Below are positions 9,373 through 64,000 of a stretch of 64,000 nucleotides of DNA, piece after piece; the first letter of the stretch is position 1, and every line of letters starts with the position of its first letter. The position numbers and the translations under genes were made by a program. Below the pieces are notes generated by a model that worked only from the letters and a program-made list of their open reading frames with translations, was not told where the DNA came from and ran no database searches. Source of the DNA: an uncultured Acidobacteriota bacterium (GTDB taxonomy: Bacteria; Acidobacteriota; Vicinamibacteria; Fen-336); NCBI GenBank assembly GCA_963744315.1, contig CAVUTB010000018.1, positions 74,147 through 138,146 on the forward strand. The letters are read 5' to 3'.

Positions 9373-9395
9373 CGGGGGCCGCTAGCGGGGGGCTC

Positions 9396-9415
9396 GGGGG
9401 GCGCTCAGCGCCCCC
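9396..9415 (+). terminator. GC hairpin after the VWA gene (GGGGGCGC-tca-GCGCCCCC), with no U-tract
   Basis: Perfect 8-bp inverted repeat 24 nt after the stop codon. Confidence 0.35.
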
Positions 9416-9533
9416 GAATACCAGTCCAGAACGTCCGTTGGCCTCTTAGTTCGTCGTTGCTTTCCTTGTTTGTTTCGCCGTGTCCTTGCCGTTGGATCCC
9501 TTGTTTGTCCCGGTCCGGCGAAGGTGCTACAAG

Positions 9534-10028
9534 GTGCCTGGGGAAGAGACCGTGGCCGAGGCCGAACCGCCGCAGGTGCTCCTGGTCGAAGACAATCCCG
9601 ATCACGAGGAGCTGATCCGCCGGGCGTTTGCCGAGCGGCAGCCGAGGGTCGCGCTCGCCGTCGCGCGCCACGGCGAGGAAGCGCTCGACTACCTGCACCG
9701 CCGCGGCAACTACCAGGACCCGCGCACGAGCCCACGGCCGCGCCTGATCCTGCTCGACCTGCGGCTGCCGCGCGTCGACGGGCTCGAGGTGCTGGGCGAG
9801 ATCAAGTCGACGCCCTCGCTGCGCTCGATGCCGGTGGTGGTGCTCACCACCTCCGACTCCGAGCACGACGTGCAGCGCGCCTACGCGCAGCACGCGAACA
9901 GCTACCTGGTGAAGCCGGCCGAGTTCTCGCGCATCCGCGAGCTGATCGACCGCGTCGAGGGCTACTGGCTCGACGTCAACCGGCTGCCGGGCGACGGCTC
10001 GCGCCCTGAGACTGGGGTCAGGTCTTGA
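9534..10028 (+). CDS. CheY-like single-domain response regulator
   Basis: VLLVEDNPDHEELIRRAF...LILLDLRLPRVDGLEVLGEIK...VVVLTTSD...YLVKP. In-frame GTG at 9534; the track ORF starts at 9480. Confidence 0.8.
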   Translation: MPGEETVAEAEPPQVLLVEDNPDHEELIRRAFAERQPRVALAVARHGEEALDYLHRRGNYQDPRTSPRPRLILLDLRLPRVDGLEVLGEIKSTPSLRSMPVVVLTTSDSEHDVQRAYAQHANSYLVKPAEFSRIRELIDRVEGYWLDVNRLPGDGSRPETGVRS

Positions 10029-31102: not shown

Positions 31103-31177
31103 GGGTAGCTAGCTCAGTGGGTAGAGCGCCGAGCGGATAACTCGGAGGTCGCAGGTTCGAATCCTGCGGTTTCGTCG
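31103..31177 (+). tRNA. tRNA-like sequence whose acceptor stem does not pair (degenerate tRNA, remnant or assembly error)
   Basis: Canonical D arm (GCTCAGTGGGTAGAGC) and T arm (GCAGG-TTCGAAT-CCTGC). Anticodon arm CCGAG-CGGATAA-CTCGG. The 5' acceptor GGGTAGC is not complementary to the 3' GGTTTCG. Confidence 0.35.
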
Positions 31178-51125: not shown

Positions 51126-52416
51126 GGCCACCGTGCATCAGCGCGTAGTCCCTGCGGTAGGGGCGCCACGTCGCGAAGAAGAGGATCGCCGAGACGAGCG
51201 ACGCCGTGCCGACGGTCAGCGCGAGCGACCAGCCGACCATCTGCCCGCTCCGGAACACGTAGTCGTTCAGCAGTCCCGGCAGCGCGGGGCCGAGGATCAG
51301 GCCGCCGAGGTTCAGCGTGAAGACCTGCAGCGCCCCGATCTGGCCGCGCACCTGGTTCGGCAGGATCAGCTGCAGCGAGGCGTAGACGCTGCCGATCGGC
51401 ATGGCGAGGAAGAAGAAGGCGGGGCCCAGCAGCGCGAGCTGCATCTCGAGCGCGCGGCATCGACAAGGACAGCGTGAAGAAGGCGCCGGCGCAGAGCGTC
51501 GCCAGCACGCCGACCCGCAGCGGCGCTTCGGCGATCCCGCGGCGCTGCCAGTAGTCCGCGAGCCGCCCGCCGCTGTAGGACCCGAGCGAGGCCGGTGGCG
51601 AGAGAGATGACGCCGAGCGTCACGCCGGCCTGGCGGAGCGACCAGCCGTGCACGCCGCACGAAGTAGGTCGGCAGCCACGCCTGCTGGGCGTAGTTGCAG
51701 AGCGCCTGGGCCGCGAAGCCGAAGCAGATCCCGGCCACCGAGGCGAGCCGCAGCTTCACCTCGCGCGCGACGTCCGCGAGGCGGAGCCGCGCCGGCTCGC
51801 CGCCCGTGGTGCGCAGCAGGTCCTTTCGCGGCGGCTCGCGGATCGTGAGGGCCAGGAGCGCCACCAGCAGGCCCGGCAGCCCGACGATCAGGAACGTGAG
51901 CCGCCAGGAGCCGACGGCGCCGATGATGAGCCCGCCCAGGATCAGGGCCAGCCCGGAGCCGAAGAAGATGCCCATCGAGAAGATGCTGAGCGCGGTCGCC
52001 AGCCGCCCCTTGGGGAAGTAGTCCGAGAGCAGCGAGAAGGCGGACGGCGAGAGCGTCGCTTCGCCGATCCCCACGCCCATCCTCGCGAGGAACAGCGTGG
52101 CGAAGCTGCGCGCTCCCGCGCAGAGCGTGGTCATCAGGCTCCAGCAGAAGATGCCCGCGGCCACCAGGTTGCGCCGGTTCTTGGTGTCGGCGATGCGGCC
52201 CATCGGAATCCCGAGCAGCGTGTAGAAGACGCCGAACGCCAGCCCCTGCAGCAGGCCGATCTGGGTGTCGCTGATCCCGAGCTCGAGCTTGATCGGCGTC
52301 ACCAGCAGGCCGAGGATCTGGCGGTCGATGAACGACAGCGTGTTGCACGCCATCAGGACGATGGCGACGTACCAGGCGTGGCGCAGCTCGCGGTCGGCTT
52401 CGACGCTTGTTTCCAT
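51112..52416 (-). CDS. MFS transporter, with about 3 frame changes between 51360 and 51700
   Basis: Twelve-transmembrane pattern. MFS motif A-like GRIADTKNRR. N-terminus LSFIDRQILGLL. Confidence 0.65.
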   Translation of the reverse strand: METSVEADRELRHAWYVAIVLMACNTLSFIDRQILGLLVTPIKLELGISDTQIGLLQGLAFGVFYTLLGIPMGRIADTKNRRNLVAAGIFCWSLMTTLCAGARSFATLFLARMGVGIGEATLSPSAFSLLSDYFPKGRLATALSIFSMGIFFGSGLALILGGLIIGAVGSWRLTFLIVGLPGLLVALLALTIREPPRKDLLRTTGGEPARLRLADVAREVKLRLASVAGICFGFAAQALCNYAQQAWLPTYFVRRARLVAPPGRRDARRHLSRHRPRSGPTAAGGSRTTGSAAGSPKRRCGSACWRRSAPAPSSRCPCRCRALEMQLALLGPAFFFLAMPIGSVYASLQLILPNQVRGQIGALQVFTLNLGGLILGPALPGLLNDYVFRSGQMVGWSLALTVGTASLVSAILFFATWRPYRRDYALMHGGHGLA

Positions 52417-52456
52417 GCTGCCGGGTCGCGCCGCAAAGCCGGCGCTCGGCCCGGCA

Positions 52457-53067
52457 TCATAGACGATGGGCGATCTTGTCGGCCATGCGCACCAGCTCGG
52501 CGAGCGAGTGGGCGCCCATCTTCTGCATCACGCGGGAGCGGTGCACCTTGACGGTCTTCTCGGTGGTGCCGAGCCGGGCGCCCACCTGCTTGTTGAGCAG
52601 GCCCGTGACGATCAGGCCGAACACGTCGCGCTCGCGCGGAGTGAGCGTGCCGAGCCGCTCCTGCAGCTGCGCGCGCTCGGCGCGCTGGATGCGGCGCTCG
52701 CCGTCCTGCTCGAGGCCCCGCGCCACGGCGGCGAGCAGCGTCTCGTCCGAGACCGGCTTCTCCAGGAAGTCGACGGCCCCGCTCTTCATCGCCTGCACGC
52801 CGCTCTGCACGTCGGCGCGGCCGCTGATGAAGACGAGCGACAGCTCGATGCCGCGCTCGAGCAGCAGCTCCTGGAGGTCGAGCCCGCTCAGGCCGGGCAT
52901 CTTCAGGTCGACGACCAGGCAGGCGGGGAGATCGTCGAGCTCGACGCCGATCAGGAAATCCTCGGCCGTGCCGAACGCGGTCGTCTGATATCCCGCGTTG
53001 CGCAGGACGCGCGTGAGCGCGCGTCGCACGCCGGCATCGTCGTCGACGAGGTAGACACGCGTGCCCG
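52457..53067 (-). CDS. LuxR/FixJ-family response regulator (REC + HTH)
   Basis: TTG 53067. VYLVDDDAGVRRAL...VVDLKMPGLSG. C-terminal LTPRERDVFGLIVTGLLNKQVGARLGTTEKTVKVHR. Confidence 0.7.
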
Positions 53068-53195
53068 GCTGAGCCAAGTCTCTTCCCCGACCCCATACTA
53101 GCACCGGGCTCGCCCGTGAACGGATCGCGGACGCCCGCAGGACAGAACGCTCAGGACCTGAACGCGCCAGTCGACGCAAGGGCGGCTAAGTCCTG

Positions 53196-55910
53196 TTACG
53201 GCGCCCTGGCGTGGGCTGGCCTCGCCTCGACGAGCGGCAGGGTGAAGGTGAAGCGCGCGCCGCGTTCCCGGTCCGCGTCGACCGTGATCGTGCCGCCGTG
53301 CGCCCCGAGAATCGACCGTGCGATCGAGAGGCCCATGCCCATGCCCTTGGCCTTGGTCGTGAAGAAGGGCTTGAAGATCTCGTGCCGGACGGGCGTGGGC
53401 AGCCCCGGCCCCGTGTCTTCGACGGACACCCGCGCCATTCCGCCCGGAGCCCGCTCGGTGCGGATCCCGATCCGGCGGTCGCCGTCGGTCTCGGCCAGCG
53501 CCTCGAGCGCGTTCACCACCAGGTTGAGCAGCACCTGCTGCAGCTGGACGCGGTCTCCGCGGGTGGTGAGCGACTCCTCCGTCAGCTCCGAGCGCATGCT
53601 GACCCCGCGCAGCATCACGTCGTTGCCGAGCAGGCGCAGGACGCCGCGCACGAGCGCGTTCACGTCGAGCTCCTCCTGCGTGCCCTCGCCCTTGCGGAGC
53701 AGCTCGCGCAGCCCCCGGATCACCTCGCCGGCGCGCCGGTCCTCGTCGATGATGTCGGTGATGATCTCCTGGACCTCGCGGCGGCCGTCGGCGGTGGCCG
53801 GCGCGGCCAGGATCTTCCGCGCCGTCTGGGCGTTCGCCAGGATCGCCGCGAGCGGCTGGTTGAGCTCGTGGGCGATCGAGGTCGTCATCTCGCCGATCGT
53901 CGACACCCGCAGGTAGTGGGCGAGCTCCTGCCGGCTCTTGTCGGCCTCCGCTTCCGCGTCCCGGCGCTCGGTGATGTCCGTGTGGGACACGACGGCGCCG
54001 CCCTCCGGCCGGTCGAGCGGCACGGCCGTCATGTGGAACCAGCGCTCGCCGTCCGGGCCGGGGCAGCCGTAGTCCTGGCCGAAGCTCGGAAGGCCGCGCT
54101 CGAGCACGCCCTGGATGCCGACGGACGCCTCGCGCGCGAGCTCGTCGCCGCTCTCGGCCGCGCGGCGGCAGACGTCGAGATAGCTCTCGCCGGGGCCCAC
54201 GATGCTCGCGGCCGGCGAGTGCAGGCGGCCGAAGCGCGTCCAGCTCTCGTTGACCGCGATGATGCGGCCGTCGCGGTCGAGCACGGCCACCAGGCTGGTG
54301 AGCGACGACAGCACGGCCGACTTCATGCTCTCGCTGGCGCGCAGCGCGTCCTCGGCGAGCATGCGCGCGAGCGCCCCGGCCAGGACGTCGGCCACGAGCC
54401 GGCTGTTCGCCACCACCGGCTCCGGCCAGCTGCGGTGCGTCGTGGTCGAGACGAGCGCCAGGCCGCCGAGCACCTCGCCGCCTGCCACGAGCGGCAGCGC
54501 CAGCAGCGACCGCGCGCCCATGCGCCGTAAGCGCTCCCGCTCCTCCGGCCGCGTCGGCAGCGCCTCGACGTCCGAGCTGACGATCGGCAGCTGGCTCATG
54601 ATGCGTTCGGCGCACCATCCGAAGGACTCCCGCCCGACGCGCGAGGGTGCGCGGCTCGCGCTCGGTCCGTGCCAGGCCACCGGCTCGAACGCCCGGCCCT
54701 GGCGCGTGAGCAGCCAGAGCCCGCACGCGTCGAGCTCGAAGAACCTCGCGAGCCGCTCGAGCGAGGCCTGGAACTCGAAATGCATCTTGTGGCTCGGCAG
54801 GTGGACGAACGCCCCCGAGAGCTGGGAGAGCAGCTCCTCGAAGCGAAGCCGCTGCCGCAGCGTGTCGGCGATCTGAGCGCGCTCCTTCATCAGCGCGCTC
54901 ACGAACAGCAGCGGCACGCCTACCACGATCAGGAACACCTGCAGCGCCATCACGCGCTGCTCGGCCGGAAGGTCGGTGAGCGGCGAGCGGCCCGACAGCG
55001 CGGTGCCGATCGCCAGCAGCGCCGTGACCAGCAGCGAGAGGCTTGCGCCGAACGGCCCGAAGCGGACCGCCGCGACGATGATGAGCGGCATCAGGAACGG
55101 CAGCGCCGTGTAGGGCCCCCCCGGCAGGAACGGATGCGCGCGCTGGGAGTCGCTGAAGACCATCCAGCCCACGGTCACGAGCGCCAACGCCAAGAGCGTC
55201 GCCTCGAGACGCTTGCGGCGCGTGGAGGCCCGCAGCCACTGGGGCCACTGGCGCACGAGCAGGACGGCGGACGGCACCAGCGTCAGCTGGCTGAGGCTGT
55301 TCGACAGCAGGCGCCGGACGCAGACGAGGCCGTAGGGGTCGCCCTGGAAGTAGTTCACCGCCGCCGCGTCGGGAAACGTCGAGACGAGCGGCCCGAGCAC
55401 GACGGCGCCGCCGACGAAGGCGAGCGCCCGCTGCAGGCTGTCGAAGCGGTTCGGGTCGTCGCTCCACGCGCGCACGAGGCCCGCGGCCACGACCGCCTCC
55501 AGGCAGTTGGTCCCGAAGAGGGTGACGACGAAGGCCGGCGCGAATCCCGCTTGCGCCAGGGCGAGCCAGTGCGCCGGAAACGCAGCAGCGAGGCAGAGCC
55601 ACCAGCGCGTGGGAGGCGTCAGCAGCAGCGCTGCCGTCAGGAGCGAGTTGGGCGGCCAGATCACGGAGGTGACGGCCGGAGGAAAACGCAGCACGGACCC
55701 GATCTGCGCACCCAGGTAGTAGGTGGCCGCCACCGCCAGGGCCAGCAGCGCGCCCCGGGCGAGCGGCGAGCGCGTGTGGAGCGCGATCCCGGATCGGCCT
55801 TCCGCACTGCGCCTCAGGCATCTCGGATACAGGCCGGTGGTTTCCTGGCTCCCGACCGTGCCGAATAGTAGCGCATAGGACGTTGGTCCAATACCCAACC
55901 GGCTCGACAA
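53196..55910 (-). CDS. Sensor histidine kinase (MASE1 membrane domain / GAF / PAS / HisKA / HATPase)
   Basis: MASE1 helices (AATYYLGAQIGSVLRFPPAVTSVIWPPNSLL). H-box SIAHELNQPL. HATPase motifs NLVVNALEA, DTGPGL, GMGMGLS. Start uncertain: ATG 55910 would overlap the divergent regulator start. Confidence 0.75.
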   Translation of the reverse strand: MSSRLGIGPTSYALLFGTVGSQETTGLYPRCLRRSAEGRSGIALHTRSPLARGALLALAVAATYYLGAQIGSVLRFPPAVTSVIWPPNSLLTAALLLTPPTRWWLCLAAAFPAHWLALAQAGFAPAFVVTLFGTNCLEAVVAAGLVRAWSDDPNRFDSLQRALAFVGGAVVLGPLVSTFPDAAAVNYFQGDPYGLVCVRRLLSNSLSQLTLVPSAVLLVRQWPQWLRASTRRKRLEATLLALALVTVGWMVFSDSQRAHPFLPGGPYTALPFLMPLIIVAAVRFGPFGASLSLLVTALLAIGTALSGRSPLTDLPAEQRVMALQVFLIVVGVPLLFVSALMKERAQIADTLRQRLRFEELLSQLSGAFVHLPSHKMHFEFQASLERLARFFELDACGLWLLTRQGRAFEPVAWHGPSASRAPSRVGRESFGWCAERIMSQLPIVSSDVEALPTRPEERERLRRMGARSLLALPLVAGGEVLGGLALVSTTTHRSWPEPVVANSRLVADVLAGALARMLAEDALRASESMKSAVLSSLTSLVAVLDRDGRIIAVNESWTRFGRLHSPAASIVGPGESYLDVCRRAAESGDELAREASVGIQGVLERGLPSFGQDYGCPGPDGERWFHMTAVPLDRPEGGAVVSHTDITERRDAEAEADKSRQELAHYLRVSTIGEMTTSIAHELNQPLAAILANAQTARKILAAPATADGRREVQEIITDIIDEDRRAGEVIRGLRELLRKGEGTQEELDVNALVRGVLRLLGNDVMLRGVSMRSELTEESLTTRGDRVQLQQVLLNLVVNALEALAETDGDRRIGIRTERAPGGMARVSVEDTGPGLPTPVRHEIFKPFFTTKAKGMGMGLSIARSILGAHGGTITVDADRERGARFTFTLPLVEARPAHARAP
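55878..55895. promoter_or_regulatory. Recurrent 18-nt motif, instance D (AGGACGTTGGTCCAATAC)
   Basis: See instances A-C. Lies 42 bp upstream of the regulator gene at 55937. Confidence 0.35.
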
Positions 55911-55936
55911 GTGAGAGGTTACGTCCGAGAGCGCGC

Positions 55937-56308
55937 ATGACTCGCGGGACCGTCTTTCTCGTCGACGACGACGCTTCGGTCCGCAAGGCCCTGCAGCGCC
56001 TGATCCGGGCCGCGGGGTACGACGTCGAGTCGTTCGCGGACGCGGCGGGCTACCTGGCGTCCCCCGTGCCCTCGCTGCCCGCCTGCATCGTGCTCGACAT
56101 CCGGATGCCGGCGATGAGCGGCTTCGAGCTGCAGAGCGCCATCGCCGGCACGCCGCGCTCGCTGCCCGTCGTCTTCATCACCGGCCACGGCGACGAGGCC
56201 GTGCGCAGCCAGGCGCTCGAGGCCGGCGCCGTGGACGTGCTGTTCAAGCCCATCGACGAGGAGGAGCTGGTGTCGGCCATCGAGAAGGCGCTCGAGACGC
56301 GCCACTAG
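55937..56308 (+). CDS. CheY-like single-domain response regulator
   Basis: ATG 55937. MTRGTVFLVDDDASVRKAL...VLDIRMPAMSGFEL...VVFITGHGD. Confidence 0.75.
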   Translation: MTRGTVFLVDDDASVRKALQRLIRAAGYDVESFADAAGYLASPVPSLPACIVLDIRMPAMSGFELQSAIAGTPRSLPVVFITGHGDEAVRSQALEAGAVDVLFKPIDEEELVSAIEKALETRH

Positions 56309-56317
56309 GGAGGCCCG

Positions 56318-57142
56318 GTGCGCCTTCGCCTGCTCCTGGTCCTGACGCTGCTGGAGGCGGCCGTCGTGCCGTCGGCCGACGTGAGGGCGCAGCCCGCCAA
56401 GGATGCCGATCGAGAGCAGTTCCTGCTGGAGGCGCAAGTGGTGCGCGCGCGTCAGGCGCCCGGCGGCATCACGGGCTCGCGGCGGGCGACGCTGCGCCGG
56501 GGCGGCGTGACGCACGACGCCGACATCCAGGTGATCGACGAGTCGAGCCCGGAGCGGACGCTCGCGTCGACGACCGAGCTCGACTTCCGGGACAGCTGGC
56601 GCAACAACGTGGCGGCCTACCGCCTCGACCGCCTGCTCGGCCTCGGCATGGTCCCGGTGACGGTGATCCGCGACTACGACGCCAGGCGCGGTGCGTTCAC
56701 CTGGTGGCTCGACAACCGGCTCATGACCGAGAAGGAGCGCCACGAGACGCGCCAGGAGGCTCCGGACGTGGAGGCGTGGAACCGACAGGTGCACGTGGTG
56801 CGGATCTTCGACCAGCTCATCTTCAACTTCGATCGCAACCTCGGCAACCTGCTGATCGACAAGAGCTGGCAGCTCTGGATGATCGACCACACGCGCGCCT
56901 TCAAGGTCTTCAAGGACCTCCGGGACCAGAAACAGCTTCCGGAGAATTGCCCGCGCCGGCTGCTGGCGGCGCTGCGCAGGCTCGACGAGCCGACGCTCAA
57001 GATGCGCGCGGGCGGCCTGCTGAGCATGGGCCAGATCGAGGGATTGCTCGGACGCCGCGACCGCATCGTCGCCCACTACGACCGCCTGATCGCCGCGCAC
57101 GGCGAGGCGGCGGTGCTCTACGACCTGCCCGTGCGGCGCTGA
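56318..57142 (+). CDS. Secreted hypothetical protein with PI3K/PI4K-like catalytic-loop motifs
   Basis: Signal peptide MRLRLLLVLTLLEAAVVPSADVRA. FNFDRNLGNLLID (DRxxxN) and WMIDHTRAF (DFG-like) resemble the atypical-kinase catalytic and activation segments. Confidence 0.4.
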   Translation: MRLRLLLVLTLLEAAVVPSADVRAQPAKDADREQFLLEAQVVRARQAPGGITGSRRATLRRGGVTHDADIQVIDESSPERTLASTTELDFRDSWRNNVAAYRLDRLLGLGMVPVTVIRDYDARRGAFTWWLDNRLMTEKERHETRQEAPDVEAWNRQVHVVRIFDQLIFNFDRNLGNLLIDKSWQLWMIDHTRAFKVFKDLRDQKQLPENCPRRLLAALRRLDEPTLKMRAGGLLSMGQIEGLLGRRDRIVAHYDRLIAAHGEAAVLYDLPVRR

Positions 57143-57173
57143 GGCTCGCCGCCTCGGGCGCCCGGAAAGCAGT

Positions 57174-57201
57174 CCGGCCGGGACTTCGAAGCCCCGGCCG
57201 G
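57174..57201. terminator. GC hairpin between convergent genes (CCGGCCGGGAC-ttcgaa-GCCCCGGCCGG)
   Basis: 10-bp stem with one mismatch and no clear U-tract. Confidence 0.3.
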
Positions 57202-57220
57202 ACCAGCGGTCAGGAGAGTC

Positions 57221-57901
57221 TCAGAAGCGGAAGACGATGCCGCCCGAGAACTCGAACTGGTTCGAGTACTGCGAGTCGCCGACGACGTAGCAGCCCCAGT
57301 ACGGATCGCACCACCAGCCTTCGGCGTCGGACTTGATGTAGGTGGGCGTCCAGCGTACGGCGAGGTTCAGGCCGACCTTGGGGGCGGGATAGAGCTTCAC
57401 GCCGAGCGCCCAGGTGGTGGAGAACTGGGTCGCACTCCCGGTCTCGCCGGCGATGTTCCCGACACTGAAGGGCACTTTGCCATAGCTCGTCGCCCCGGCG
57501 CCGCCCAGGAAGTAGGGCCGCGCCTTGGCATCGGGGTCGCCGAAGTGGTAGGCGATGAACCCGTGGTAGTTGTTGACGCTCATGTCGCCGATCTCGCGCT
57601 CCTGCGTCCCGCCGACCGTGAGCGTGCTCTTCTGCTGGCCGAAGAGGAACCCGATCTCCAGGTTCGGATTCACGAAGAACCCTGCCTGGAGGTTGTACGA
57701 GAACGAATCCTTGGGCTCGATCGAGTTGTAGACGTTTCCGTCGCCGGCGATGACGCCGTCGAACGTCACGCCGTCGCTGAGCGTCCACCCGGCGCTGCCG
57801 CCGATCTCGATGCGCGGGTCCTGTGCCTGGGCCGGCGCCGCCGCCAGAAGCCCCACGCTGGCACACACACACGCGACCTGACGAATCACCGCTCGAGTCA
57901 T
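57221..57901 (-). CDS. Outer-membrane beta-barrel protein (OmpA/OmpW-like)
   Basis: Signal peptide MTRAVIRQVACVCASVGLLAAAPAQA. Alternating amphipathic beta-strands, C-terminal ...GGIVFRF. AGGGGG ribosome-binding site. Confidence 0.65.
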   Translation of the reverse strand: MTRAVIRQVACVCASVGLLAAAPAQAQDPRIEIGGSAGWTLSDGVTFDGVIAGDGNVYNSIEPKDSFSYNLQAGFFVNPNLEIGFLFGQQKSTLTVGGTQEREIGDMSVNNYHGFIAYHFGDPDAKARPYFLGGAGATSYGKVPFSVGNIAGETGSATQFSTTWALGVKLYPAPKVGLNLAVRWTPTYIKSDAEGWWCDPYWGCYVVGDSQYSNQFEFSGGIVFRF

Positions 57902-58004
57902 TACTTCCCCCTGTTCGGATCCCCCATCAAACACAATACGGCATCTCTTACTTGATTCATACGACCGTGCTCCCATCGTACGCAGGGGCGGGCCGAGCCG
58001 ATAT

Positions 58005-58022
58005 GGGACCAAGGTCCAATAG
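58005..58022. promoter_or_regulatory. Recurrent 18-nt motif, instance A (GGGACCAAGGTCCAATAG)
   Basis: Contains the palindrome GGACC-AA-GGTCC followed by AAT. See B-D. Confidence 0.35.
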
Positions 58023-58079
58023 CTCGAAGGCGGGAGCTCGCAGGAACCTGCGATAGGAGCCGAGGCCGTGCCTCGAGGC

Positions 58080-58500
58080 GGAGACCCGTAGCCATCTTCC
58101 GTCGCGCGTTCCTGGGGGCGGCGGCCCTGCCCTCTCGGCGCCAAGGTCTTCGGAGCGCCCGGCAAGCTGCCGATCGCGGCGTTCGGTGCCACGGGCGTCC
58201 AGGTGCCGCTGCTCGCCTGCGGCTGCGGCAGCCGTCCTGGCCTACAAGGACGACGACGAGGCGGTGGGCGTGCTGTCGCGCGCGATCGACCTCGGCTTCA
58301 GCTACGTCGACACCGCGAACAACTACGGCAACGGCAAGAGCGAGGAGCGCGTGGGCCGGCTCACGCCGCGCCGCGGCGAGGTCATCCGCCGACCAAGCTC
58401 GCCGCGCTGGCCAAGGCGAAGCTGCCAGCTCGAGGCGAGCTTCTGCGACCGGTCGACGTTCCAGCGCGGTGCCGAACTGATGCGACAGGCGCTGTGCTGA
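58080..58500 (+). pseudogene. Decayed partial duplicate of the aldo/keto reductase gene at 60482 (N-terminal ~100 codons, frame-shifted)
   Basis: 58137-58420 aligns at nucleotide level with 60535-60800 (estimated 80-85% identity). One 30-mer, ctacaaggacgacgacgaggcggtgggcgt, is identical. The reading frame is broken at ~58235 and ends prematurely. Confidence 0.5.
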
Positions 58501-58784
58501 AGGTCGTGCACGGGCCGCGCAGGACTTCAAGGCTGCCGGCACTCGACCTCGGGAACGATCGCAGGCGGCCCTGGAGCGCGACTTCGGCTGCAGTGGCGCG
58601 AACGTGCGGCGCGCGCATGAAGCTCGACGCAAGATGGGCCGCAAGCCCGGCCAGATGGCGATTCAAGCTGGCGCTCGCGCTCGTGGAGGCCGTCCAGTCG
58701 AACGGCGGCGCCGAGGCCGCTCAGCTGCTGGCGACCGCCCTCGAGTAGGGAGCCTCCACCCCCATCCCCGGGGGCAAGCGCCGT

Positions 58785-58802
58785 AAGACCAAAGGCCAAT
58801 AG
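58785..58802. promoter_or_regulatory. Recurrent 18-nt motif, instance B (AAGACCAAAGGCCAATAG)
   Basis: 34 bp upstream of the NarL-type regulator start. Confidence 0.35.
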
Positions 58803-58835
58803 ACACGCCCGCCGGCCGTGTGAAGGATTGCAGGC

Positions 58836-59477
58836 GTGAGGCCCCGCGTCGTGCTGGCCGATTCGCAGGCCGTGCTCGCGGAGGCGCTCGCGTGCCTGCT
58901 CGAGCCGGACTTCGACGTGGCCGGCGTCGTCACCGACGGGATCGAGCTGGTGAAGCAGGCGACGCGCCTGTCGCCCGCGCTCGTAGTGACGGACGTGTCG
59001 TTGCCGCGCCTGGGCGGCCTCGCGGCTGCGGGCCGCGTGCTTCAAGCGCGGCCCGGCACGCGCGTGGTGTTGCTGACCGCCTGTGAAGACCTCCAGGTGG
59101 CCGCCCAGGCGTTCGAGCTGGGAGCGGCAGGCTATGTGCTGCGGAGCACCGGCGCCCGCGAGTTCCTGCGGGCCCTCAGGACGGTCCTGCGCGGCGGGCG
59201 CTGGCTGTCGGTCGCTCTCGCCGGGGGCGATCCCGACGCGCTCGAGCCCCAGCCTCCCGCGCTCGAGCCTCTCGGGCGCCTCAGCCCGCGCAAGCGCGAG
59301 GTCGTGCGGCTGCTCGCCGAGGGGCATTCCATGAAGCAGGCAGCGGCGGTCCTGGGCATCAGCACCCGGACTGTGGCCTACCATAAGTACCAGGCGATGG
59401 AGGCGCTGGCCGTGCGCTCGTCCGCACAGCTCGTACGCTTCGCGGTCGAAAGCCGGCTGATCGGAGCGGGCGTCTAG
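58836..59477 (+). CDS. NarL/LuxR-family response regulator
   Basis: VVLADSQAVLAEAL...VVTDVSLPRLGG. C-terminal LSPRKREVVRLLAEGHSMKQAAAVLGISTRTVAYHK. Confidence 0.75.
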   Translation: MRPRVVLADSQAVLAEALACLLEPDFDVAGVVTDGIELVKQATRLSPALVVTDVSLPRLGGLAAAGRVLQARPGTRVVLLTACEDLQVAAQAFELGAAGYVLRSTGAREFLRALRTVLRGGRWLSVALAGGDPDALEPQPPALEPLGRLSPRKREVVRLLAEGHSMKQAAAVLGISTRTVAYHKYQAMEALAVRSSAQLVRFAVESRLIGAGV

Positions 59478-59500
59478 CGCCTCTTACCGAGGCTAGAGCC

Positions 59501-60361
59501 GTGAAGAAGCTGCGCGGCATCCAACGCAGCGTGGACCGCCACTGGGTGGGCAACGGCTTCCCGGTGCGGACGCTCTTCGCCTACCCGAACGAGGGGGAGC
59601 TGCTGAGCCCCTTCCTGCTGCTCGACTACGCCGGGCCCACCGAGTTCACGCCCACGACCGAGCGGCGGGGCGTCGGACCTCACCCGCACCGCGGGTTCGA
59701 GACCGTCACGATCGTGTATGCCGGCGAGGTCGAGCACCGCGACTCGTCGGGCGGCGGCGGCCGCATCGGCGAGGGCGACGTGCAATGGATGACGGCCGCC
59801 TCGGGAATCGTGCACGAGGAGTTCCACGGGCGCGAGTACGCGACGCGAGGCGGACCCTTCGAGATGGTCCAGCTCTGGGTCAACCTGCCGCGCAAGGACA
59901 AGATGGCGCCTCCCGGGTACCAGGCGATCACGGACAGCCGGATTCCATCCGTGCCGCTGCCCGGCGGGCTCGGCACGGCACGCGTGATCGCGGGGGAGCT
60001 CGCCGGCGCGAAAGGCCCCGCCCGCACCTTCACGCCGCTGCACGTCGTCGACCTCAAGCTGCACGGCACGAAGCGGGAGCAGATCGCCGTGCCGGACGGC
60101 TGGACGACGGCCGTCGTGGTGCTGCGTGGCTCGCTGCGGGTGGAGGGCTCGGACCCGATCGAGGAAGCGGAAATCGGGCTGTTCGACCGCGAGGGCGCGG
60201 ACATCGCGATCGACGAGGCGAGCGAAGCGCGCGCGCTGCTGCTCGCGGGGGAGCCGATCCACGAGCCGATCGTCGGGATGGGCCCGTTCGTGATGAACAG
60301 CCCCGGTGAGATCCGCCAGGCGATGATCGACTTCGAGAGCGGTCGGATGGGACGGCTGTAG
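59501..60361 (+). CDS. Pirin-family (cupin) protein
   Basis: GTG start. HPHRGFETVTIVYAGEVEHRDSSG...VQWMTAASGIVHEE. Bicupin with a metal-binding His cluster. Confidence 0.8.
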   Translation: MKKLRGIQRSVDRHWVGNGFPVRTLFAYPNEGELLSPFLLLDYAGPTEFTPTTERRGVGPHPHRGFETVTIVYAGEVEHRDSSGGGGRIGEGDVQWMTAASGIVHEEFHGREYATRGGPFEMVQLWVNLPRKDKMAPPGYQAITDSRIPSVPLPGGLGTARVIAGELAGAKGPARTFTPLHVVDLKLHGTKREQIAVPDGWTTAVVVLRGSLRVEGSDPIEEAEIGLFDREGADIAIDEASEARALLLAGEPIHEPIVGMGPFVMNSPGEIRQAMIDFESGRMGRL

Positions 60362-60481
60362 AGGCAGGCCCAGGCCGCCGAGAGGGTCCTTGGCGAGGGA
60401 TCCGATAATGGGAAGCGCCGCCAAGTCCGAACCGCGGTACGATCCCCGGCGAGGCAGGTCACGCCTCGAAGGAGGAGCCAC

Positions 60482-61447
60482 GTGAGCATCTCCCGCCGCG
60501 CGTTCCTGGGGACAGCGGCCCTCGCTCCGCTCGGTGCCAAAGTCTTCGCCGCCGTGGGGAAGCTCCCGACGCGCGCCTTCGGCAAGACGGGCGTCAAGGT
60601 GCCGATCCTCGCCTTCGGCTGCGGCAGCCGCTACCTCGCCTACAAGGACGACGACGAGGCGGTGGGCGTACTGTCCCGAGCCATCGACCTCGGCTACACC
60701 TACCTCGACACCGCCAACAACTACGGGAACGGGAAGAGCGAAGAGCGCGTCGGACGGCTGATGGCCAGCCGTCGCGGCGAGGTCTTCCTGCAGACCAAGA
60801 TCGCCGCGCGCAAGGGCGACGAGGCGCAGCGCCAGATCGAAGCCAGCCTGAAGCGCCTGCAGACCGACAGGCTCGACGTGCTCCACATTCACAGCCTGAC
60901 GAGCATGGATGACCTGGCCGCGATCGAGGCGGCGGACGGCGTGCTCAAGGTCGTCCAGCAGGCGAAGGAGCAGAAGATCGCGCGCTTCATCGGCATCACC
61001 GGCCACGCGAACCCGGCGGCGATGCAGGCCGCCCTCGAGCGGCACGATTTCGACTGCGTGCAGATGGCGCTGAACGCCGCCCGCGCCCGCATGGAGTTCG
61101 ACGACAAGGGGCCGAACCCGGTCCCGATGGCGGATGCGAGCTACGAGACGCTCGCGCTGCCGGTGGCGGTCCGCAAGAAGATGGGCATCATAGCGATGAA
61201 GGTGTTCGGCCAGGATCGGCTGCTGGACAAGAACGCCCCCGACAAGCTGATGTATTACGCGCTGTCGCTCCCGGTCAGCCTCGGCCACCGTGGGGATGCC
61301 GAAGCCCGACCTGCTCGAGAAGAACGTCGCGCTCGCGCGCTCGTTCGCCCCGCTCGCGCCGGGAGAGATGCAGTCGCTCCGCGCCGCCGTCGGCGAAGCG
61401 AAGGGAAGGGAGCTCGCGCAGTTCTTCGCACACCACCAGGACGCGTA
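60482..61447 (+). CDS. Tat-exported aldo/keto reductase, with a frame change ~61290
   Basis: SRRAFLGTAALAPLGA is a Tat motif. LDTANNYGNGKSEE and IGITGH. The corrected C-terminus reads ...LSLPVSLATVGMPKPDLLEKNVALARSFAPL...FFAHHQDA, TAG at 61445-61447. Confidence 0.75.
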
Positions 61448-61563
61448 GCCGCACGCGGAGGCCCTGGTCGACGCGGCCGGAACCAACTACGGGATGCTGC
61501 GGATGCAGGACGCCATGAAGCGGCTGAAGCACGTCGAGAGCATCGCGCCTCCGCGCAACTGAT

Positions 61564-61959
61564 TCACGGATTCGAGGAAGGAGCCGCGCCGGCGAGAACC
61601 CGCGCGCAGGTCTCGAGCAGGGCGTCCACGCCGAGCAGCTTGTCGTGGCGCGCCCGCACCAGCGGCGAGTCGAGGAAGCCGTGGCGAATCTCGGCGGTCA
61701 TCAGGACCACCGGGACGTCGATGCCCTCGGCCTCGACCCGCTCCAGGAACTCGCTGCCGTCCATGACCGGCATCCGCAGGTCGAGCAGGACCAGGTCGGG
61801 TCGGCGCCGCCGGACCTCCGCGAGGGCCTGCTCGCCGTCGGCGGCGACGACGAGGTCGTAGGTGCGGGACAGGACCCGTTCCAGCATGTGCCGGATCGAA
61901 GCGTCGTCGTCGACGGCGAGCACTCTCTTCCTGATGTCGGTCGGCTTGCTGTTGTCCAT
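61564..61959 (-). CDS. CheY-like single-domain response regulator
   Basis: RVLAVDDDASIRHMLERVL...LVLLDLRMPVMDGSEFL...VVLMTA. Confidence 0.75.
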   Translation of the reverse strand: MDNSKPTDIRKRVLAVDDDASIRHMLERVLSRTYDLVVAADGEQALAEVRRRRPDLVLLDLRMPVMDGSEFLERVEAEGIDVPVVLMTAEIRHGFLDSPLVRARHDKLLGVDALLETCARVLAGAAPSSNP

Positions 61960-62012
61960 CCGGGTTGTCGTCCATCCTCCGTCGCGCCGCCAAGGATAGG
62001 CCAGGCCGGCCT

Positions 62013-62030
62013 AGGACCAAAGTCCAATCG
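62013..62030. promoter_or_regulatory. Recurrent 18-nt motif, instance C (AGGACCAAAGTCCAATCG)
   Basis: Lies in the divergent region between the regulator gene (start 61959) and the HAD gene (62107). Confidence 0.35.
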
Positions 62031-62106
62031 ACGCTGCCGGACCGGGCTTGTAGAGTTCGCGTGGCGGAGCCTGTCGGGACGCCTGCCCCAAGGAGAAATC
62101 CAGATC

Positions 62107-63096
62107 ATGCCGAGAATGCAGCGAACGTCCCTCGTCCTTGCCGCGGCACTCGTGTCGGCCACGGCGGCCGCGCAGACCACGGACCCGCTGGCGTCGTGGA
62201 ACGACGGGCCGGCGAAGCAGGCGATCGTCAAGTTCGTGGCGGAGGTGACGAGCGAGGGCGCCGCGTTCGTGGAGCCGGCCCAGCGAATCGCGGTCTTCGA
62301 CAACGACGGCACGCTCTGGTCCGAGCAGCCGATCTACTTCCAGCTCGCCTTCGCGCTCGACCGGGTGAAGGCGATGGCGCCCAAGCACCCCGAGTGGAAG
62401 ACGCAGGAGCCCTACAAGACGCTGCTCGCCGGAGACGTGAAGGGCGCGCTCGCGCAGGGCGAGAAGGCGATGCTCGGGATCCTGGCCGCGACGCACAGCG
62501 GCATGACGACCGAGGAGTTCGCCTCGAGCGTCGAGGCCTGGGCGGCGAGCGCCAAGCACCCGAAGAGCGGTCGGCTCTACACCGAGATGGTCTACCAGCC
62601 CATGCTCGAGCTGCTCCGCTACCTGCGGGGGAAGGGCTTCAAGACCTTCATCGTCTCCGGCGGCGGTGTCGAGTTCATGCGCGCCTGGGCCGAGAAGGCC
62701 TACGGCATCCCGCCGGAGCAGGTGGTGGGAAGCAGCGGCGTCACGAGGTTCGAGCTGCGGCCGAACGGTCCCGTGCTGCTGAAAGAAGCCAAGATGGAGT
62801 TCGTCGACGACGGGCCGGGCAAGCCGGTCGGCATCAACCGCTTCATCGGGCGGCGTCCGATCCTGGCGTTCGGCAACTCCGACGGCGACCACCAGATGCT
62901 GCAGTGGACCGCGGCCGGATCGGGGCGTCGCTTGCTCGGGCTCGTGCACCATACCGACGCCGAGCGCGAGTGGGCCTACGACCGGCAGTCGCACATCGGC
63001 AAGCTCGACAAGGCGCTCGACGAGGCGCTGCAGCGGGACTGGGCGGTCGTCGACATGAAGAAGGACTGGAAGCGCATCTATCCTTTCGAGAAATAG
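62107..63096 (+). CDS. Secreted HAD-like hydrolase (subfamily IB; phosphatase-like)
   Basis: Signal peptide MPRMQRTSLVLAAALVSATAAA. VFDNDGTLW (motif I) ... FGNSDGD (motif IV). Confidence 0.65.
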   Translation: MPRMQRTSLVLAAALVSATAAAQTTDPLASWNDGPAKQAIVKFVAEVTSEGAAFVEPAQRIAVFDNDGTLWSEQPIYFQLAFALDRVKAMAPKHPEWKTQEPYKTLLAGDVKGALAQGEKAMLGILAATHSGMTTEEFASSVEAWAASAKHPKSGRLYTEMVYQPMLELLRYLRGKGFKTFIVSGGGVEFMRAWAEKAYGIPPEQVVGSSGVTRFELRPNGPVLLKEAKMEFVDDGPGKPVGINRFIGRRPILAFGNSDGDHQMLQWTAAGSGRRLLGLVHHTDAEREWAYDRQSHIGKLDKALDEALQRDWAVVDMKKDWKRIYPFEK

Positions 63097-63174
63097 CAGG
63101 GTCGGGGCCGTTCCGGCCACGTCGCCGACCTCGACATCCAGCCACCGGATGCGCTACACCTGACAGGGAGGCCC

Positions 63175-64000
<826 letters not shown>

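What the first reader, a model, noticed from the sequence alone, without database searches (positions are those of the whole stretch)
55878..62030. An 18-nt motif (consensus AGGACCAAAG-TCCAAT-G) recurs four times upstream of response-regulator genes
The four instances are A 58005-58022 GGGACCAAGGTCCAATAG, B 58785-58802 AAGACCAAAGGCCAATAG, C 62013-62030 AGGACCAAAGTCCAATCG and D 55878-55895 AGGACGTTGGTCCAATAC. Each contains a GGAC...GTCC palindrome followed by CCAAT. All lie in intergenic DNA within a 6.2-kb stretch, 34-54 bp upstream of regulator gene starts (58836, 61959 on the minus strand, 55937). One also faces the OmpA-like and HAD genes. This looks like a shared operator or promoter element that defines a small regulon of two-component genes. 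The LuxR-type regulators or an alternative sigma factor are candidate binders.
Basis: seen in the sequence. Interest (0 to 1): 0.65.

Follow-up and report, generated by a model that had tools for sequence, protein, structure and literature searches.

The report
Conserved operator of an acidobacterial two-component system
The four repeats are real copies of a 20-bp palindromic DNA site, conserved across related soil Acidobacteria, where a two-component response regulator most likely docks to switch on neighbouring regulator, outer-membrane and stress genes; it is a solid but ordinary kind of bacterial control element.

Summary
Four sites, at 55874-55893, 58002-58021, 58782-58801 and 62010-62029, are the only matches in 64 kb (0 expected by chance). 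The real unit is a roughly 20-bp palindrome, yATnGGAC-CWWG-GTCCnATr; "CCAAT" is the outer part of one half-site. The sites are conserved at orthologous intergenic positions in related Acidobacteriota contigs while their flanks diverge. The motif follows the neighbouring MASE1-GAF-PAS histidine kinase and its FixJ-type response regulator (52457-53077). There are 57-63 sites in 242 kb around kinase orthologues down to 44% identity. There are none in 753 kb around homologues of the NarL-type regulator (58836) in other contexts. A -10-like hexamer (nAnnnT) lies exactly 31-32 nt from the palindrome centre in 48 of 113 independent contexts (background about 3 per offset). This places the site at about -43.5, overlapping the -35 position, which is activator geometry. 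The core fits the EL222 consensus RGNCYWWRGNCY, and the FixJ-type regulator shares EL222's recognition helix (EKTVKxHR). Best reading: it is the operator of that FixJ-type regulator, activating the REC-only gene, the OMP gene, the NarL-type regulator-pirin operon and the HAD operon. Binding itself is untested. New member of a known kind.

The parts
55874..55893 (.). Site D: palindromic operator CATAGGAC-GTTG-GTCCAATA, in the 116-bp gap between the histidine kinase start (55820, minus strand) and the REC-only gene (55937, plus strand)
   Evidence: Conserved in L001, L002, L006, L051, L053-55, L083, L133 and L135.
58002..58021 (.). Site A: TATGGGAC-CAAG-GTCCAATA, upstream of the beta-barrel OMP gene (start 57911, minus strand) and of an aldo/keto-reductase remnant (plus strand)
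   Evidence: The orthologous site is a perfect palindrome in L001 (CTATTGGAC-CAAA-GTCCAATAG) and L002 (GTATTGGACC-AA-GGTCCAATAC).
58782..58801 (.). Site B: CGTAAGAC-CAAA-GGCCAATA, 34 nt upstream of the GTG start of the NarL-type regulator gene (58836)
   Evidence: GACCAAAGGCCAATAGACA is an invariant block in an otherwise diverged intergenic alignment. It fits RGNCYWWRGNCY at 12 of 12 positions.
62010..62029 (.). Site C: CCTAGGAC-CAAA-GTCCAATC, between the REC-only gene 61564-61959 (minus strand) and the HAD gene 62107 (plus strand)
   Evidence: Conserved in L001, L006 and L051.
55915..55920 (+). -10-like hexamer GAGGTT, 31 nt from the centre of D, facing the REC-only gene 55937
   Evidence: fixed-offset class, 48 of 113 independent contexts.
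57975..57980 (-). -10-like hexamer TACGAT (minus strand), 31 nt from the centre of A, facing the OMP gene
58823..58828 (+). -10-like hexamer AAGGAT, 31 nt from the centre of B. It predicts a transcript starting at or next to the GTG at 58836 (near-leaderless). TAGACA at 58800-58805 is a -35-like hexamer 17 nt upstream.
62051..62056 (+). -10-like hexamer TAGAGT, 31 nt from the centre of C, facing the HAD/MoxR operon
61993..61998 (-). -10-like hexamer TATCCT (minus strand), 21 nt from the centre of C, facing REC2. In this geometry the operator would lie between -35 and -10.
   Evidence: conserved in L001, L006 and the diverged L051.
55865..55870 (-). -10-like hexamer TACTAT (minus strand), 13 nt from the centre of D, facing the kinase operon
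   Evidence: TACTAT/TACCAT at offset 13 in the window, L054, L055 and others.
53196..55820 (-). Sensor histidine kinase, MASE1-GAF-PAS-HisKA-HATPase
   Evidence: Pfam. The start is taken from the orthologue annotations. The motif tracks orthologues of this gene.
52457..53077 (-). FixJ/StyR-type response regulator (REC + GerE HTH), the proposed binder. The longest ORF reaches 53179, but homologues are 206 aa.
55937..56308 (+). Single-domain receiver (REC1), a target of site D. It is followed by a 274-aa gene at 56318-57142.
   Evidence: REC1 is the most consistently motif-linked gene across loci.
57210..57911 (-). Outer-membrane beta-barrel protein, a target of site A
   Evidence: No Pfam hit for the window copy. 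Orthologues hit PF13505 OMP_b-brl.
58836..59477 (+). NarL-type response regulator (REC + GerE), a target of site B and the alternative candidate binder. It is followed by pirin at 59501-60361 and an aldo/keto reductase at 60482-61448.
61564..61959 (-). Single-domain receiver (REC2), next to site C
62107..63096 (+). HAD-family hydrolase, first gene of a HAD-MoxR-DUF58-VWA (Bat-like) operon and the predicted target of site C

Best explanation
The four repeats are operators for a dimeric GerE (LuxR-type) helix-turn-helix response regulator. The most likely binder is the FixJ/StyR-type regulator at 52457-53077, partner of the adjacent MASE1-GAF-PAS histidine kinase (53196-55820).

Each operator is a 20-bp palindrome, yATnGGAC-CWWG-GTCCnATr. 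On phosphorylation the regulator dimer would bind it. At most promoters the palindrome is centred about 43.5 bp upstream of the transcription start, abutting the -35 position of a promoter that has only a -10-like hexamer. There it would recruit RNA polymerase (class II-type activation).

In this window that geometry applies to:
- the REC-only gene 55937 (site D);
- the OMP gene 57911 on the minus strand (site A);
- the NarL-type regulator-pirin-AKR operon 58836 (site B, predicted near-leaderless);
- the HAD/MoxR operon 62107 (site C).

On the REC2 side of C and the kinase side of D the -10-like hexamer is only 21 and 13 nt from the centre. There the same bound dimer would sit inside the core promoter and more likely repress.

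What is shown: the sites, their conservation, their linkage to the kinase/FixJ-type pair, the fixed spacing to a -10-like hexamer, and the fit to the consensus of a homologous HTH.

What is inferred: the identity of the binder, the transcription starts, and the sign of regulation.
For: 1. Non-random and local. There are four sites and no others in 64 kb.

2. Conserved at orthologous promoters while flanks diverge. Orthologues of site A are perfect 22-bp palindromes.

3. Linked to the kinase system.
- 57-63 sites lie in 242 kb around full-length kinase orthologues (44-87% identity).
- 0 sites at thresholds of 16 bits or more lie in 753 kb around NarL-type regulator homologues in other contexts.
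- 0-3 sites lie in 428 kb around weak kinase homologues. Shuffles give about 0.
- The CWWG spacer was not used to select sites, yet it is conserved.

4. Intergenic. 59 of 79 sites are intergenic although 67% of the DNA was called coding. Among the 20 called coding, the window's sites D and C and the orthologues of D lie at the 5' ends of over-extended ORF calls; the remainder were not checked individually.

5. Binder.
- The only GerE HTH found in distant motif-bearing loci is the FixJ type, with recognition helix EKT[VI]K[VI]HRxRVM conserved at 49-52% overall identity.
- Loci fetched independently through FixJ-type homologues carry sites without any NarL-type regulator within 10 kb (L133 and L134). 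L133 has a site 40 nt upstream of the FixJ-type gene itself.

6. Specificity by homology.
- The best solved-structure match of this HTH is EL222 (E = 2.4e-14), with recognition helix EKTVKMHRG against EKTVKVHRS here.
- EL222 binds RGNCYWWRGNCY (PMC10521638). Sites A, B and C fit 12 of 12 positions and D fits 11 of 12.
- The NarL-type regulator has TRTVAYHKY at these positions.

7. Geometry.
- nAnnnT lies at offset 31/32 from the palindrome centre in 61 of 140 oriented contexts. After removing contexts more than 70% identical this is 48 of 113, against a background of 2.9 per offset.
- An EL222 site overlapping -35 activates a sigma-70 promoter, and one placed between -35 and -10 represses it (PMC5001607).
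- StyR-P dimers activate from an inverted repeat at about -40 (PMC2442086).
Against: - No binding or expression data exist. Transcription starts are inferred only from a degenerate -10-like hexamer.
- The general PWM was trained on the sites it then counts, so the counts in the kinase loci are partly circular. The seeds did come from a consensus defined only on the window's clade, and controls were scanned identically.
- The kinase and the FixJ-type regulator are nearly always adjacent, so linkage cannot separate this regulator from an unlinked factor controlling the same neighbourhood.
- Several motif-bearing contigs (L060, L061, L067, L068, L077) show no GerE regulator at all within the contig.
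- The NarL-type regulator also has a GerE HTH whose best structural match is EL222 (E = 4.6e-10), and it has a site at its own promoter.
- Many hexamers at the fixed offset are poor -10 elements (for example GAGGTT, AAGGAT). AAGGAT could instead be a ribosome-binding site.
- Gene calls in metagenome loci were made with a crude GC3 rule.
Confidence: 0.62

Rival explanations
1. The operator is bound by the NarL-type response regulator encoded at 58836-59477. It would autoregulate through site B and control the neighbouring receiver, OMP and HAD genes. The FixJ-type regulator would be irrelevant or act elsewhere.
For: - It has a GerE HTH, and site B lies 34 nt upstream of its start, conserved in L001, L002, L006, L051, L054 and L135.
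- Its HTH also matches EL222 best (E = 4.6e-10).
- Its recognition helix RTVAYHKYQAME is invariant in the clade that carries the cluster.
- The core GGAC-N4-GTCC resembles the box of DosR, another NarL-family regulator.
Against: - Homologues at 62-70% identity with nearly the same recognition helix (L003-L005, L007, L050, L052) have no site within 10 kb, and there are 0 sites in 753 kb overall.
- Many motif-bearing loci have no such regulator within the contig.
- Positions equivalent to the DosR base-contacting residues K179/K182/N183 (PMC4082495; the mapping onto these regulators rests on my recollection of the DosR sequence) are R/A/Y here. They are K/K/V in the FixJ-type regulator and K/K/M in EL222.
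Confidence: 0.13
2. The palindrome is the operator of some other transcription factor encoded elsewhere in the genome. It would control the same envelope/stress neighbourhood, including the kinase operon, and the linkage to the FixJ-type regulator would be incidental.
For: - Five motif-bearing contigs of 9-17 kb show no GerE-type regulator.
- Linkage analysis cannot separate co-regulated neighbours from the regulator itself.
- Palindromes of this size suit many dimeric HTH families.
Against: - The fit to the consensus of a close HTH homologue (EL222), with the recognition helix conserved.
- The AC-CWWG-GT centre is typical of GerE-type dimers (DosR box).
- Sites lie directly upstream of the FixJ-type gene or its operon in the window, L079, L133 and L134.
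- No other DNA-binding gene was noticed among the conserved neighbours, but those loci were not systematically screened for DNA-binding domains.
Confidence: 0.15
3. The repeat is not a protein operator but a promoter for an alternative sigma factor, an RNA hairpin, or a dispersed repeat (REP/MITE-like).
For: - All four window copies are on the same strand and lie upstream of plus-strand genes.
- Sites A, C and D can form a 4-bp hairpin.
- No sigma-70 consensus promoter is found nearby.
Against: - The element is symmetric, and in relatives it works in both orientations, with the -10-like hexamer on either or both sides.
- The distance from the proximal half-site to the hexamer (about 25 nt) does not fit -35/-10 spacing.
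- Site B does not fold, and fold z-scores are about 0 for three of the four sites.
- Sequence rather than pairing is conserved.
- There is no Rfam match.
- Copies are confined to promoters of one gene neighbourhood and are not dispersed.
Confidence: 0.04

Closest known systems
EL222 (LOV-HTH of Erythrobacter litoralis) and its 12-bp consensus RGNCYWWRGNCY
   Same: - Its GerE-type HTH is the best solved-structure match for the FixJ-type regulator's HTH (E = 2.4e-14).
- The recognition helix is nearly identical (EKTVKMHRG against EKTVKVHRS).
- The motif core GGACC-WW-GGTCC fits the consensus. The high-affinity C120 core TAGGTAGCCTTTAGTCCATG even resembles sites such as TGTAGGACTTTGGTCCCATG in L060.
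- It activates when overlapping -35 and represses when placed between -35 and -10.
   Different: - EL222 is switched by a LOV domain and light, not by a receiver domain and a kinase.
- The acidobacterial sites carry extra conserved outer positions (AT-n...n-AT) and a stricter GGAC/GTCC.
- The organism and the regulon are unrelated.
StyR/TodT/FixJ subfamily of NarL/LuxR-type response regulators (StyS-StyR of Pseudomonas)
   Same: - The whole protein is most similar to StyR (PDB 1YIO, E = 1.6e-46) and FixJ.
- StyR dimerises on phosphorylation, binds inverted repeats, and activates from a high-affinity site at about -40. It uses several sites per promoter with opposite effects (PMC2442086).
- From memory, not verified here: the STY/Tod boxes ATAAAC-CATG-GTTTAT share the AC-CWWG-GT centre.
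   Different: - The half-site is different (nGGAC rather than TAAAC).
- The sensor is a MASE1-GAF-PAS kinase, not StyS/TodS.
- The targets are envelope/stress and signalling genes, not aromatic catabolism.
DosR/DevR box of Mycobacterium tuberculosis (TTSGGGACTWWAGTCCCSAA)
   Same: - It is a 20-bp palindrome for a GerE-type response regulator.
- It has the same GGAC-N4-GTCC core and an A/T-rich centre (PMC2275270).
- The regulator's base-contacting lysines K179 and K182 (PMC4082495) are matched by lysines in the FixJ-type regulator here.
- There are multiple sites in a stress regulon that includes the regulator's own operon.
   Different: - The outer positions differ (ATn against TTSG).
- The regulator is only distantly related to DevR (E about 1e-12).
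- The kinase has HisKA (PF00512) and a MASE1 membrane domain, not the DosS/DosT architecture.
- The phylum is different.

Membership tests
Operator of a GerE/LuxR-type (NarL/FixJ family) response regulator | Inverted repeat of two half-sites spanning about 18-20 bp with an AC-N4-GT centre | tested here: met
   PWM from 51 distinct sites: y-A-T-n-G-G-A-C-C-W-W-G-G-T-C-C-n-A-T-r. Orthologues of site A are perfect palindromes.
Operator of a GerE/LuxR-type (NarL/FixJ family) response regulator | Sites lie in promoter regions of the regulated genes and are conserved at orthologous promoters | tested here: met
   59 of 79 sites are intergenic against 67% of the DNA called coding. Conserved blocks sit in diverged intergenic alignments.
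Operator of a GerE/LuxR-type (NarL/FixJ family) response regulator | A GerE-HTH regulator co-occurs with the sites across genomes | tested here: met
   A FixJ-type regulator is present in the motif-bearing loci L054, L055, L057, L062-64, L079, L085, L086 and L133-135. It was not found on five contigs of 9-17 kb.
Operator of a GerE/LuxR-type (NarL/FixJ family) response regulator | Direct, phosphorylation-dependent binding of the regulator to the site | not testable with these tools
   Needs EMSA, footprinting or DAP-seq.
EL222-type DNA specificity (RGNCYWWRGNCY) | Sites conform to the 12-bp consensus | tested here: met
   A GGACCAAGGTCC, B AGACCAAAGGCC and C GGACCAAAGTCC fit 12 of 12; D GGACGTTGGTCC fits 11 of 12. 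Consensus from PMC10521638.
EL222-type DNA specificity (RGNCYWWRGNCY) | The candidate binder shares the recognition helix of EL222 | tested here: met
   EKTVKVHRS against EKTVKMHRG. The NarL-type regulator has TRTVAYHKY.
EL222-type DNA specificity (RGNCYWWRGNCY) | LOV-HTH one-component architecture | tested here: not met
   The candidate has a receiver domain plus GerE and no LOV/PAS domain. It works like EL222 at the DNA but is not a member of that protein family.
DosR/DevR regulon box | Full consensus TTSGGGACTWWAGTCCCSAA | tested here: not met
   Only the core GGAC-N4-GTCC is shared. The outer positions are A-T-n, not T-T-S-G.
DosR/DevR regulon box | DosR orthologue with DosS/DosT-type kinase | tested here: not met
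   DevR is a distant match (E = 6.5e-13 and 2.2e-12). The kinase is MASE1-GAF-PAS-HisKA.
Class II activator-dependent promoter | Activator site at a fixed position overlapping or abutting -35, with a -10 element but no -35 consensus | tested here: met
   nAnnnT lies at 31/32 nt from the centre in 48 of 113 independent contexts, against 2.9 per offset. No sigma-70 -35/-10 consensus pair is found.
Class II activator-dependent promoter | Mapped transcription start about 41-44 nt downstream of the site centre, and activator-dependent transcription | not testable with these tools
   Needs 5'-RACE, dRNA-seq or reporter assays.
Alternative sigma-factor promoter | Asymmetric -35/-10 pair with 16-19 nt spacing and a single orientation relative to the gene | tested here: not met
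   The element is palindromic and is used in both orientations. The proximal half-site is about 25 nt from the hexamer.
Structured RNA / terminator hairpin | Stable fold with pairing preserved by compensatory change | tested here: not met
   Site B does not fold. Z-scores are +0.5, -1.9, +0.6 and -0.1. There is no Rfam hit and no terminator-like site.

The most novel reading that the evidence does not exclude
The motif marks a previously undescribed envelope/stress two-component regulon conserved across Vicinamibacteria-like Acidobacteriota. One FixJ-type regulator with EL222-like specificity would use a single palindrome in two registers: centre at about -43.5 to activate, and at about -33.5 or -25.5 to repress. 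It would sit at the top of a cascade that switches on a second-tier NarL-type regulator and two single-domain receivers, which feed back on the same kinase.
Probability: 0.3. Interest if true: 0.5.

Novelty: new member of a known kind. Interest (0 to 1): 0.38.

Why it matters
Almost nothing is known about transcriptional regulation in soil Acidobacteriota, most of which are uncultured. This result provides:
- a ready-made regulon prediction, comprising an operator, a promoter architecture, a candidate regulator and sensor, and target genes for outer-membrane, lipid-asymmetry (Mla), stress and signalling proteins;
- a motif conserved over kinase orthologues down to 44% identity, so it can be used to annotate many MAGs;
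- a natural set of EL222-like operators at defined promoter positions, of some interest for people who engineer that HTH.

It does not change any general concept, because palindromic operators of LuxR-type response regulators are textbook material.

Tried and rejected
1. RNA hairpin or riboswitch-like element. Rejected: site B does not fold, z-scores are near zero for three of the four sites, and there is no Rfam hit.

2. Sigma-70 consensus promoter or terminator at the sites. None was found.

3. Sigma-54 or ECF promoter, by inspection of GG-N10-GC and GGAAC-N16-CGT patterns. No fit, and the palindromic symmetry argues against it.

4. First hypothesis: an autoregulatory operator of the NarL-type regulator at 58836 (DosR-like). 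Weakened because its homologues elsewhere lack the motif and the motif occurs without it.

5. Exact look-up of the window's NarL-type regulator in the assembly index. It is not on record.

6. P0012 contigs could not be read because the files were too large.

7. Literature search for the motif strings returned only unrelated primers. The StyR/TodT box sequences could not be verified in the held library and are cited from memory only.

Full report
**Observation**

The region 55700-62300 was read directly. Sites A (58005-58022), B (58785-58802) and C (62013-62030) are exactly as reported.
- A search with the consensus and up to 3 mismatches finds 3 sites, against 0.00 expected in 100 dinucleotide shuffles.
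- The 8-mer GKCCAATM occurs four times in 64 kb, and these are exactly the four sites.
- A PWM from the four sites scores them 25-29 bits. The next unrelated position scores 10; two intermediate scores are sites A and D read on the other strand.
- The window has about 72% G+C, so this A/T-containing motif is not compositional.

**Gene context**

Pfam gives the following genes:

| Coordinates | Strand | Product |
|---|---|---|
| 52457-53179 | - | REC+GerE regulator, closest to StyR and FixJ (E = 1.6e-46 and 1.4e-35); homologues are 206 aa, so the start is probably near 53077 |
| 53196-55820 | - | MASE1-GAF-PAS-HisKA-HATPase kinase |
| 55937-56308 | + | receiver only (REC1) |
| 56318-57142 | + | 274-aa protein |
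| 57210-57911 | - | outer-membrane beta-barrel; orthologues hit PF13505 |
| 58836-59477 | + | REC+GerE regulator of the NarL/VraR/DevR type |
| 59501-60361 | + | pirin |
| 60482-61448 | + | aldo/keto reductase |
| 61564-61959 | - | receiver only (REC2) |
| 62107-63096 | + | HAD hydrolase, followed by a MoxR/Bat-like operon |

With the kinase start placed at 55820, as annotated in the orthologous loci, site D is intergenic.

**What the repeat really is**

Homologues of the NarL-type regulator were collected and their contigs fetched. The window comes from an Acidobacteriota MAG lineage. CAVRVE010000006.1 is 95-96% identical in nucleotides, and more distant relatives are labelled Vicinamibacterales or Vicinamibacteria.

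The motif is present at the orthologous positions in every locus that carries the whole cluster: L001, L002, L006, L051, L054 and L135.
- In L001 and L002 the orthologue of site A is a perfect palindrome: CTATTGGAC-CAAA-GTCCAATAG and GTATTGGACC-AA-GGTCCAATAC.
- The unit is therefore a 20-22-bp inverted repeat.
- D carries TT at the centre where the others carry AA, so it is the same site in the inverse orientation.
- In alignments with the more diverged loci, the motif is an invariant block in otherwise poorly conserved intergenic DNA. Examples are GACCAAAGGCCAATAGACA at site B and TATnGGACCAAnGTCCAATA at site A.

**Which system the motif belongs to**

Homologues of the NarL-type regulator at 62-70% identity that sit in other gene contexts (L003-L005, L007, L050, L052) have no site within 10 kb. 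I therefore fetched loci through the kinase instead.

The motif appears, usually several times per locus, around full-length kinase orthologues down to 44% identity. A symmetrised PWM from 51 distinct sites gives y-A-T-n-G-G-A-C-C-W-W-G-G-T-C-C-n-A-T-r. The C-W-W-G spacer was not used for selection, yet it is strongly conserved.

Site counts at 14-18 bits:

| Group | DNA scanned | Sites |
|---|---|---|
| Kinase orthologues | 242 kb | 57-63 |
| Close cluster loci | 73 kb | 13-14 |
| This window | 64 kb | 4 |
| NarL-type homologues in other contexts | 753 kb | 0 (4 at the loosest cut) |
| Weak kinase homologues | 428 kb | 0-3 |
| Shuffled sequences | - | near 0 |

The PWM was trained on sites from the first groups, so those counts are partly circular. 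The seed consensus, however, came only from the window's clade, and all groups were scanned identically.

Of 79 sites, 59 are intergenic although my crude gene calls label 67% of the DNA as coding. Among the other 20, the ones I checked (the window's D and C and the orthologues of D) lie at the 5' ends of over-extended ORFs.

**Regulon**

In the window the sites face REC1, the OMP gene, the NarL-type regulator-pirin-AKR operon, and the REC2/HAD gap.

In distant loci the genes next to sites encode:
- OmpA-family proteins (three);
- MlaA and MlaC;
- a LolA-like DUF2092 protein;
- a glycine-zipper lipoprotein;
- DUF308 membrane proteins;
- an MMPL transporter;
- a GH63/MGH1-like hydrolase;
- 6-phosphogluconolactonase (two);
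- single-domain receivers;
- the kinase itself;
- a FixJ-type regulator.

Inference: this is a cell-envelope/stress regulon with feedback on its own signalling proteins.

**Who binds**

The only GerE-type HTH found in distant motif-bearing loci is the FixJ type. Its recognition helix EKT[VI]K[VI]HRxRVM is conserved even at 49-52% overall identity.

Loci fetched independently through FixJ-type homologues confirm the link:
- L133 (a 4.7-Mb MAG contig) has five sites. One is in the REC1/kinase gap and one is 40 nt upstream of the FixJ-type gene. No NarL-type regulator lies within 10 kb.
- L134 has one site, in the REC1/FixJ-type gap, again without the NarL-type gene.

The HTH domain of the window's FixJ-type regulator matches EL222 best among solved structures (E = 2.4e-14), with EKTVKVHRS against EKTVKMHRG.
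- EL222 binds the 12-bp consensus RGNCYWWRGNCY (PMC10521638).
- Sites A, B and C fit it at 12 of 12 positions, and D at 11 of 12. This also explains why the "degenerate" site B (AGACC-AA-AGGCC) is tolerated.
- The core also resembles the DosR box TTSGGGACTWWAGTCCCSAA (PMC2275270).
- The DosR base-contacting residues are K179, K182 and N183 (PMC4082495). Their equivalents are K, K, V in the FixJ-type regulator but R, A, Y in the NarL-type one. The alignment to DosR rests on my knowledge of its sequence.

I therefore favour the FixJ-type regulator. The NarL-type regulator or an unlinked factor cannot be excluded. Five motif-bearing contigs of 9-17 kb show no GerE gene, and kinase and regulator are almost always adjacent, so linkage alone is not proof.

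**How it most likely works**

I oriented all contexts from the palindrome centre outwards. A -10-like hexamer nAnnnT then appears at offset 31 or 32 in 61 of 140 contexts. After collapsing contexts more than 70% identical beyond the palindrome, this is 48 of 113, against a background of 2.9 per offset. Examples are TACGAT, TAGAGT, TACGCT, TAAATT, CACAAT and GAGGTT.

If this hexamer is the -12 to -7 element, the palindrome is centred at about -43.5 or -44.5. It then abuts the -35 position, where no -35 consensus is seen. That is the class II activator layout.

Precedents:
- An EL222 site overlapping -35 activates a sigma-70 promoter, and the same site between -35 and -10 represses it (PMC5001607).
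- StyR-P dimers activate from an inverted repeat at about -40 (PMC2442086).

In the window the canonical hexamers are:
- GAGGTT 55915-55920 (D, towards REC1);
- TACGAT on the minus strand 57975-57980 (A, towards the OMP gene);
- AAGGAT 58823-58828 (B, towards the NarL-type regulator). Here the predicted start coincides with the GTG at 58836, giving a near-leaderless mRNA, and a -35-like TAGACA is also present;
- TAGAGT 62051-62056 (C, towards HAD);
- a weak GAACCT 58044-58049, which faces the reductase remnant.

On the REC2 side of C, a conserved TATCCT lies at offset 21. It is kept in the diverged L051, where REC2 is the only gene that site can serve. On the kinase side of D, TACTAT/TACCAT lies at offset 13. 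In these two cases the bound dimer would lie within the core promoter, which suggests repression. This last step is inference only.

**Alternatives rejected**
- RNA hairpin: site B does not fold, and z-scores are +0.5, -1.9, +0.6 and -0.1.
- Known RNA families: the only Rfam hit is a tRNA at 31110-31167, far from the sites.
- Terminators and sigma-70 consensus promoters: none.
- Alternative sigma promoter: excluded by the symmetry, the use in both orientations and the spacing.

**Comparison and novelty**

The element works like the operators of EL222, StyR/TodT and DosR. The regulator is a member of the FixJ subfamily of the NarL/LuxR-type response regulators. It is not an EL222 (no LOV domain), and the system is not DosRST (different flanks, different kinase).

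The motif strings do not occur in the searchable literature except as unrelated primers. It is therefore a new member of a known kind: a well-supported in-silico regulon for an uncultured acidobacterial lineage, with a defined promoter architecture.

Interest is moderate. It is useful for annotating Acidobacteriota and as a set of testable hypotheses, but it is not conceptually surprising.

**Limits**
- There are no binding, expression or transcription-start data.
- Gene calls in metagenome loci are crude.
- The taxonomy of the metagenome contigs is unknown.
- The whole source genome could not be scanned.

Noticed in passing
window 58088-58444 (degraded tail to about 58750): Remnant of a second aldo/keto-reductase gene between sites A and B. 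It is broken into three reading frames and covers only residues 20-142 of the protein. The close relative L006 has the intact gene at this place (8923-9935).
   Followed up: partly
window 60482-61448: The aldo/keto-reductase gene changes reading frame near 61285-61295 (tblastn pieces in frames 2 and 3). This is either a genuine frameshift or an assembly error.
   Followed up: partly
window 50000-64000 against L001 and L006: Nucleotide identity is mosaic. The regulator-pirin segment is 96% identical to L006 but 85% to L001, whereas the reductase segment is 94% identical to L001 but 84% to L006. This suggests recombination between related strains.
   Followed up: no
L006 11527-19375: The closest genome has about 6.6 kb more DNA between pirin and REC2 than the window has. 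Its content was not analysed.
   Followed up: no
window 61993-61998 and 55865-55870 (minus strand): Conserved -10-like hexamers lie at non-canonical distances from the operator centres: TATCCT at 21 nt facing REC2, and TACTAT at 13 nt facing the kinase operon. These point to a second, probably repressive, register of the same operator.
   Followed up: partly
window 52457-53179 (minus strand): The longest ORF of the FixJ-type regulator is 240 aa, but nearly all homologues are 206 aa. The true start is probably near 53077, and there is no ATG at that position (the codon there translates as L).
   Followed up: partly
window 31104-31176: A tRNA-Ile (GAT) gene. Rfam matched only positions 8-63 of its tRNA model.
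   Followed up: no
L005 11076-11095 and L050 8708-8727: Two loci with NarL-type regulator homologues share the sequence TGTTTGAGGGGTGTCCCATAGG next to a LysR-type gene. It may be a different, unrelated operator.
   Followed up: no
L003 and L134: Both contigs come from the same assembly (ERZ25039492). One carries a NarL-type regulator homologue with no motif nearby. The other carries the kinase/FixJ-type pair with a motif. If they belong to one genome, this is a within-genome dissociation of the motif from the NarL-type regulator.
   Followed up: no
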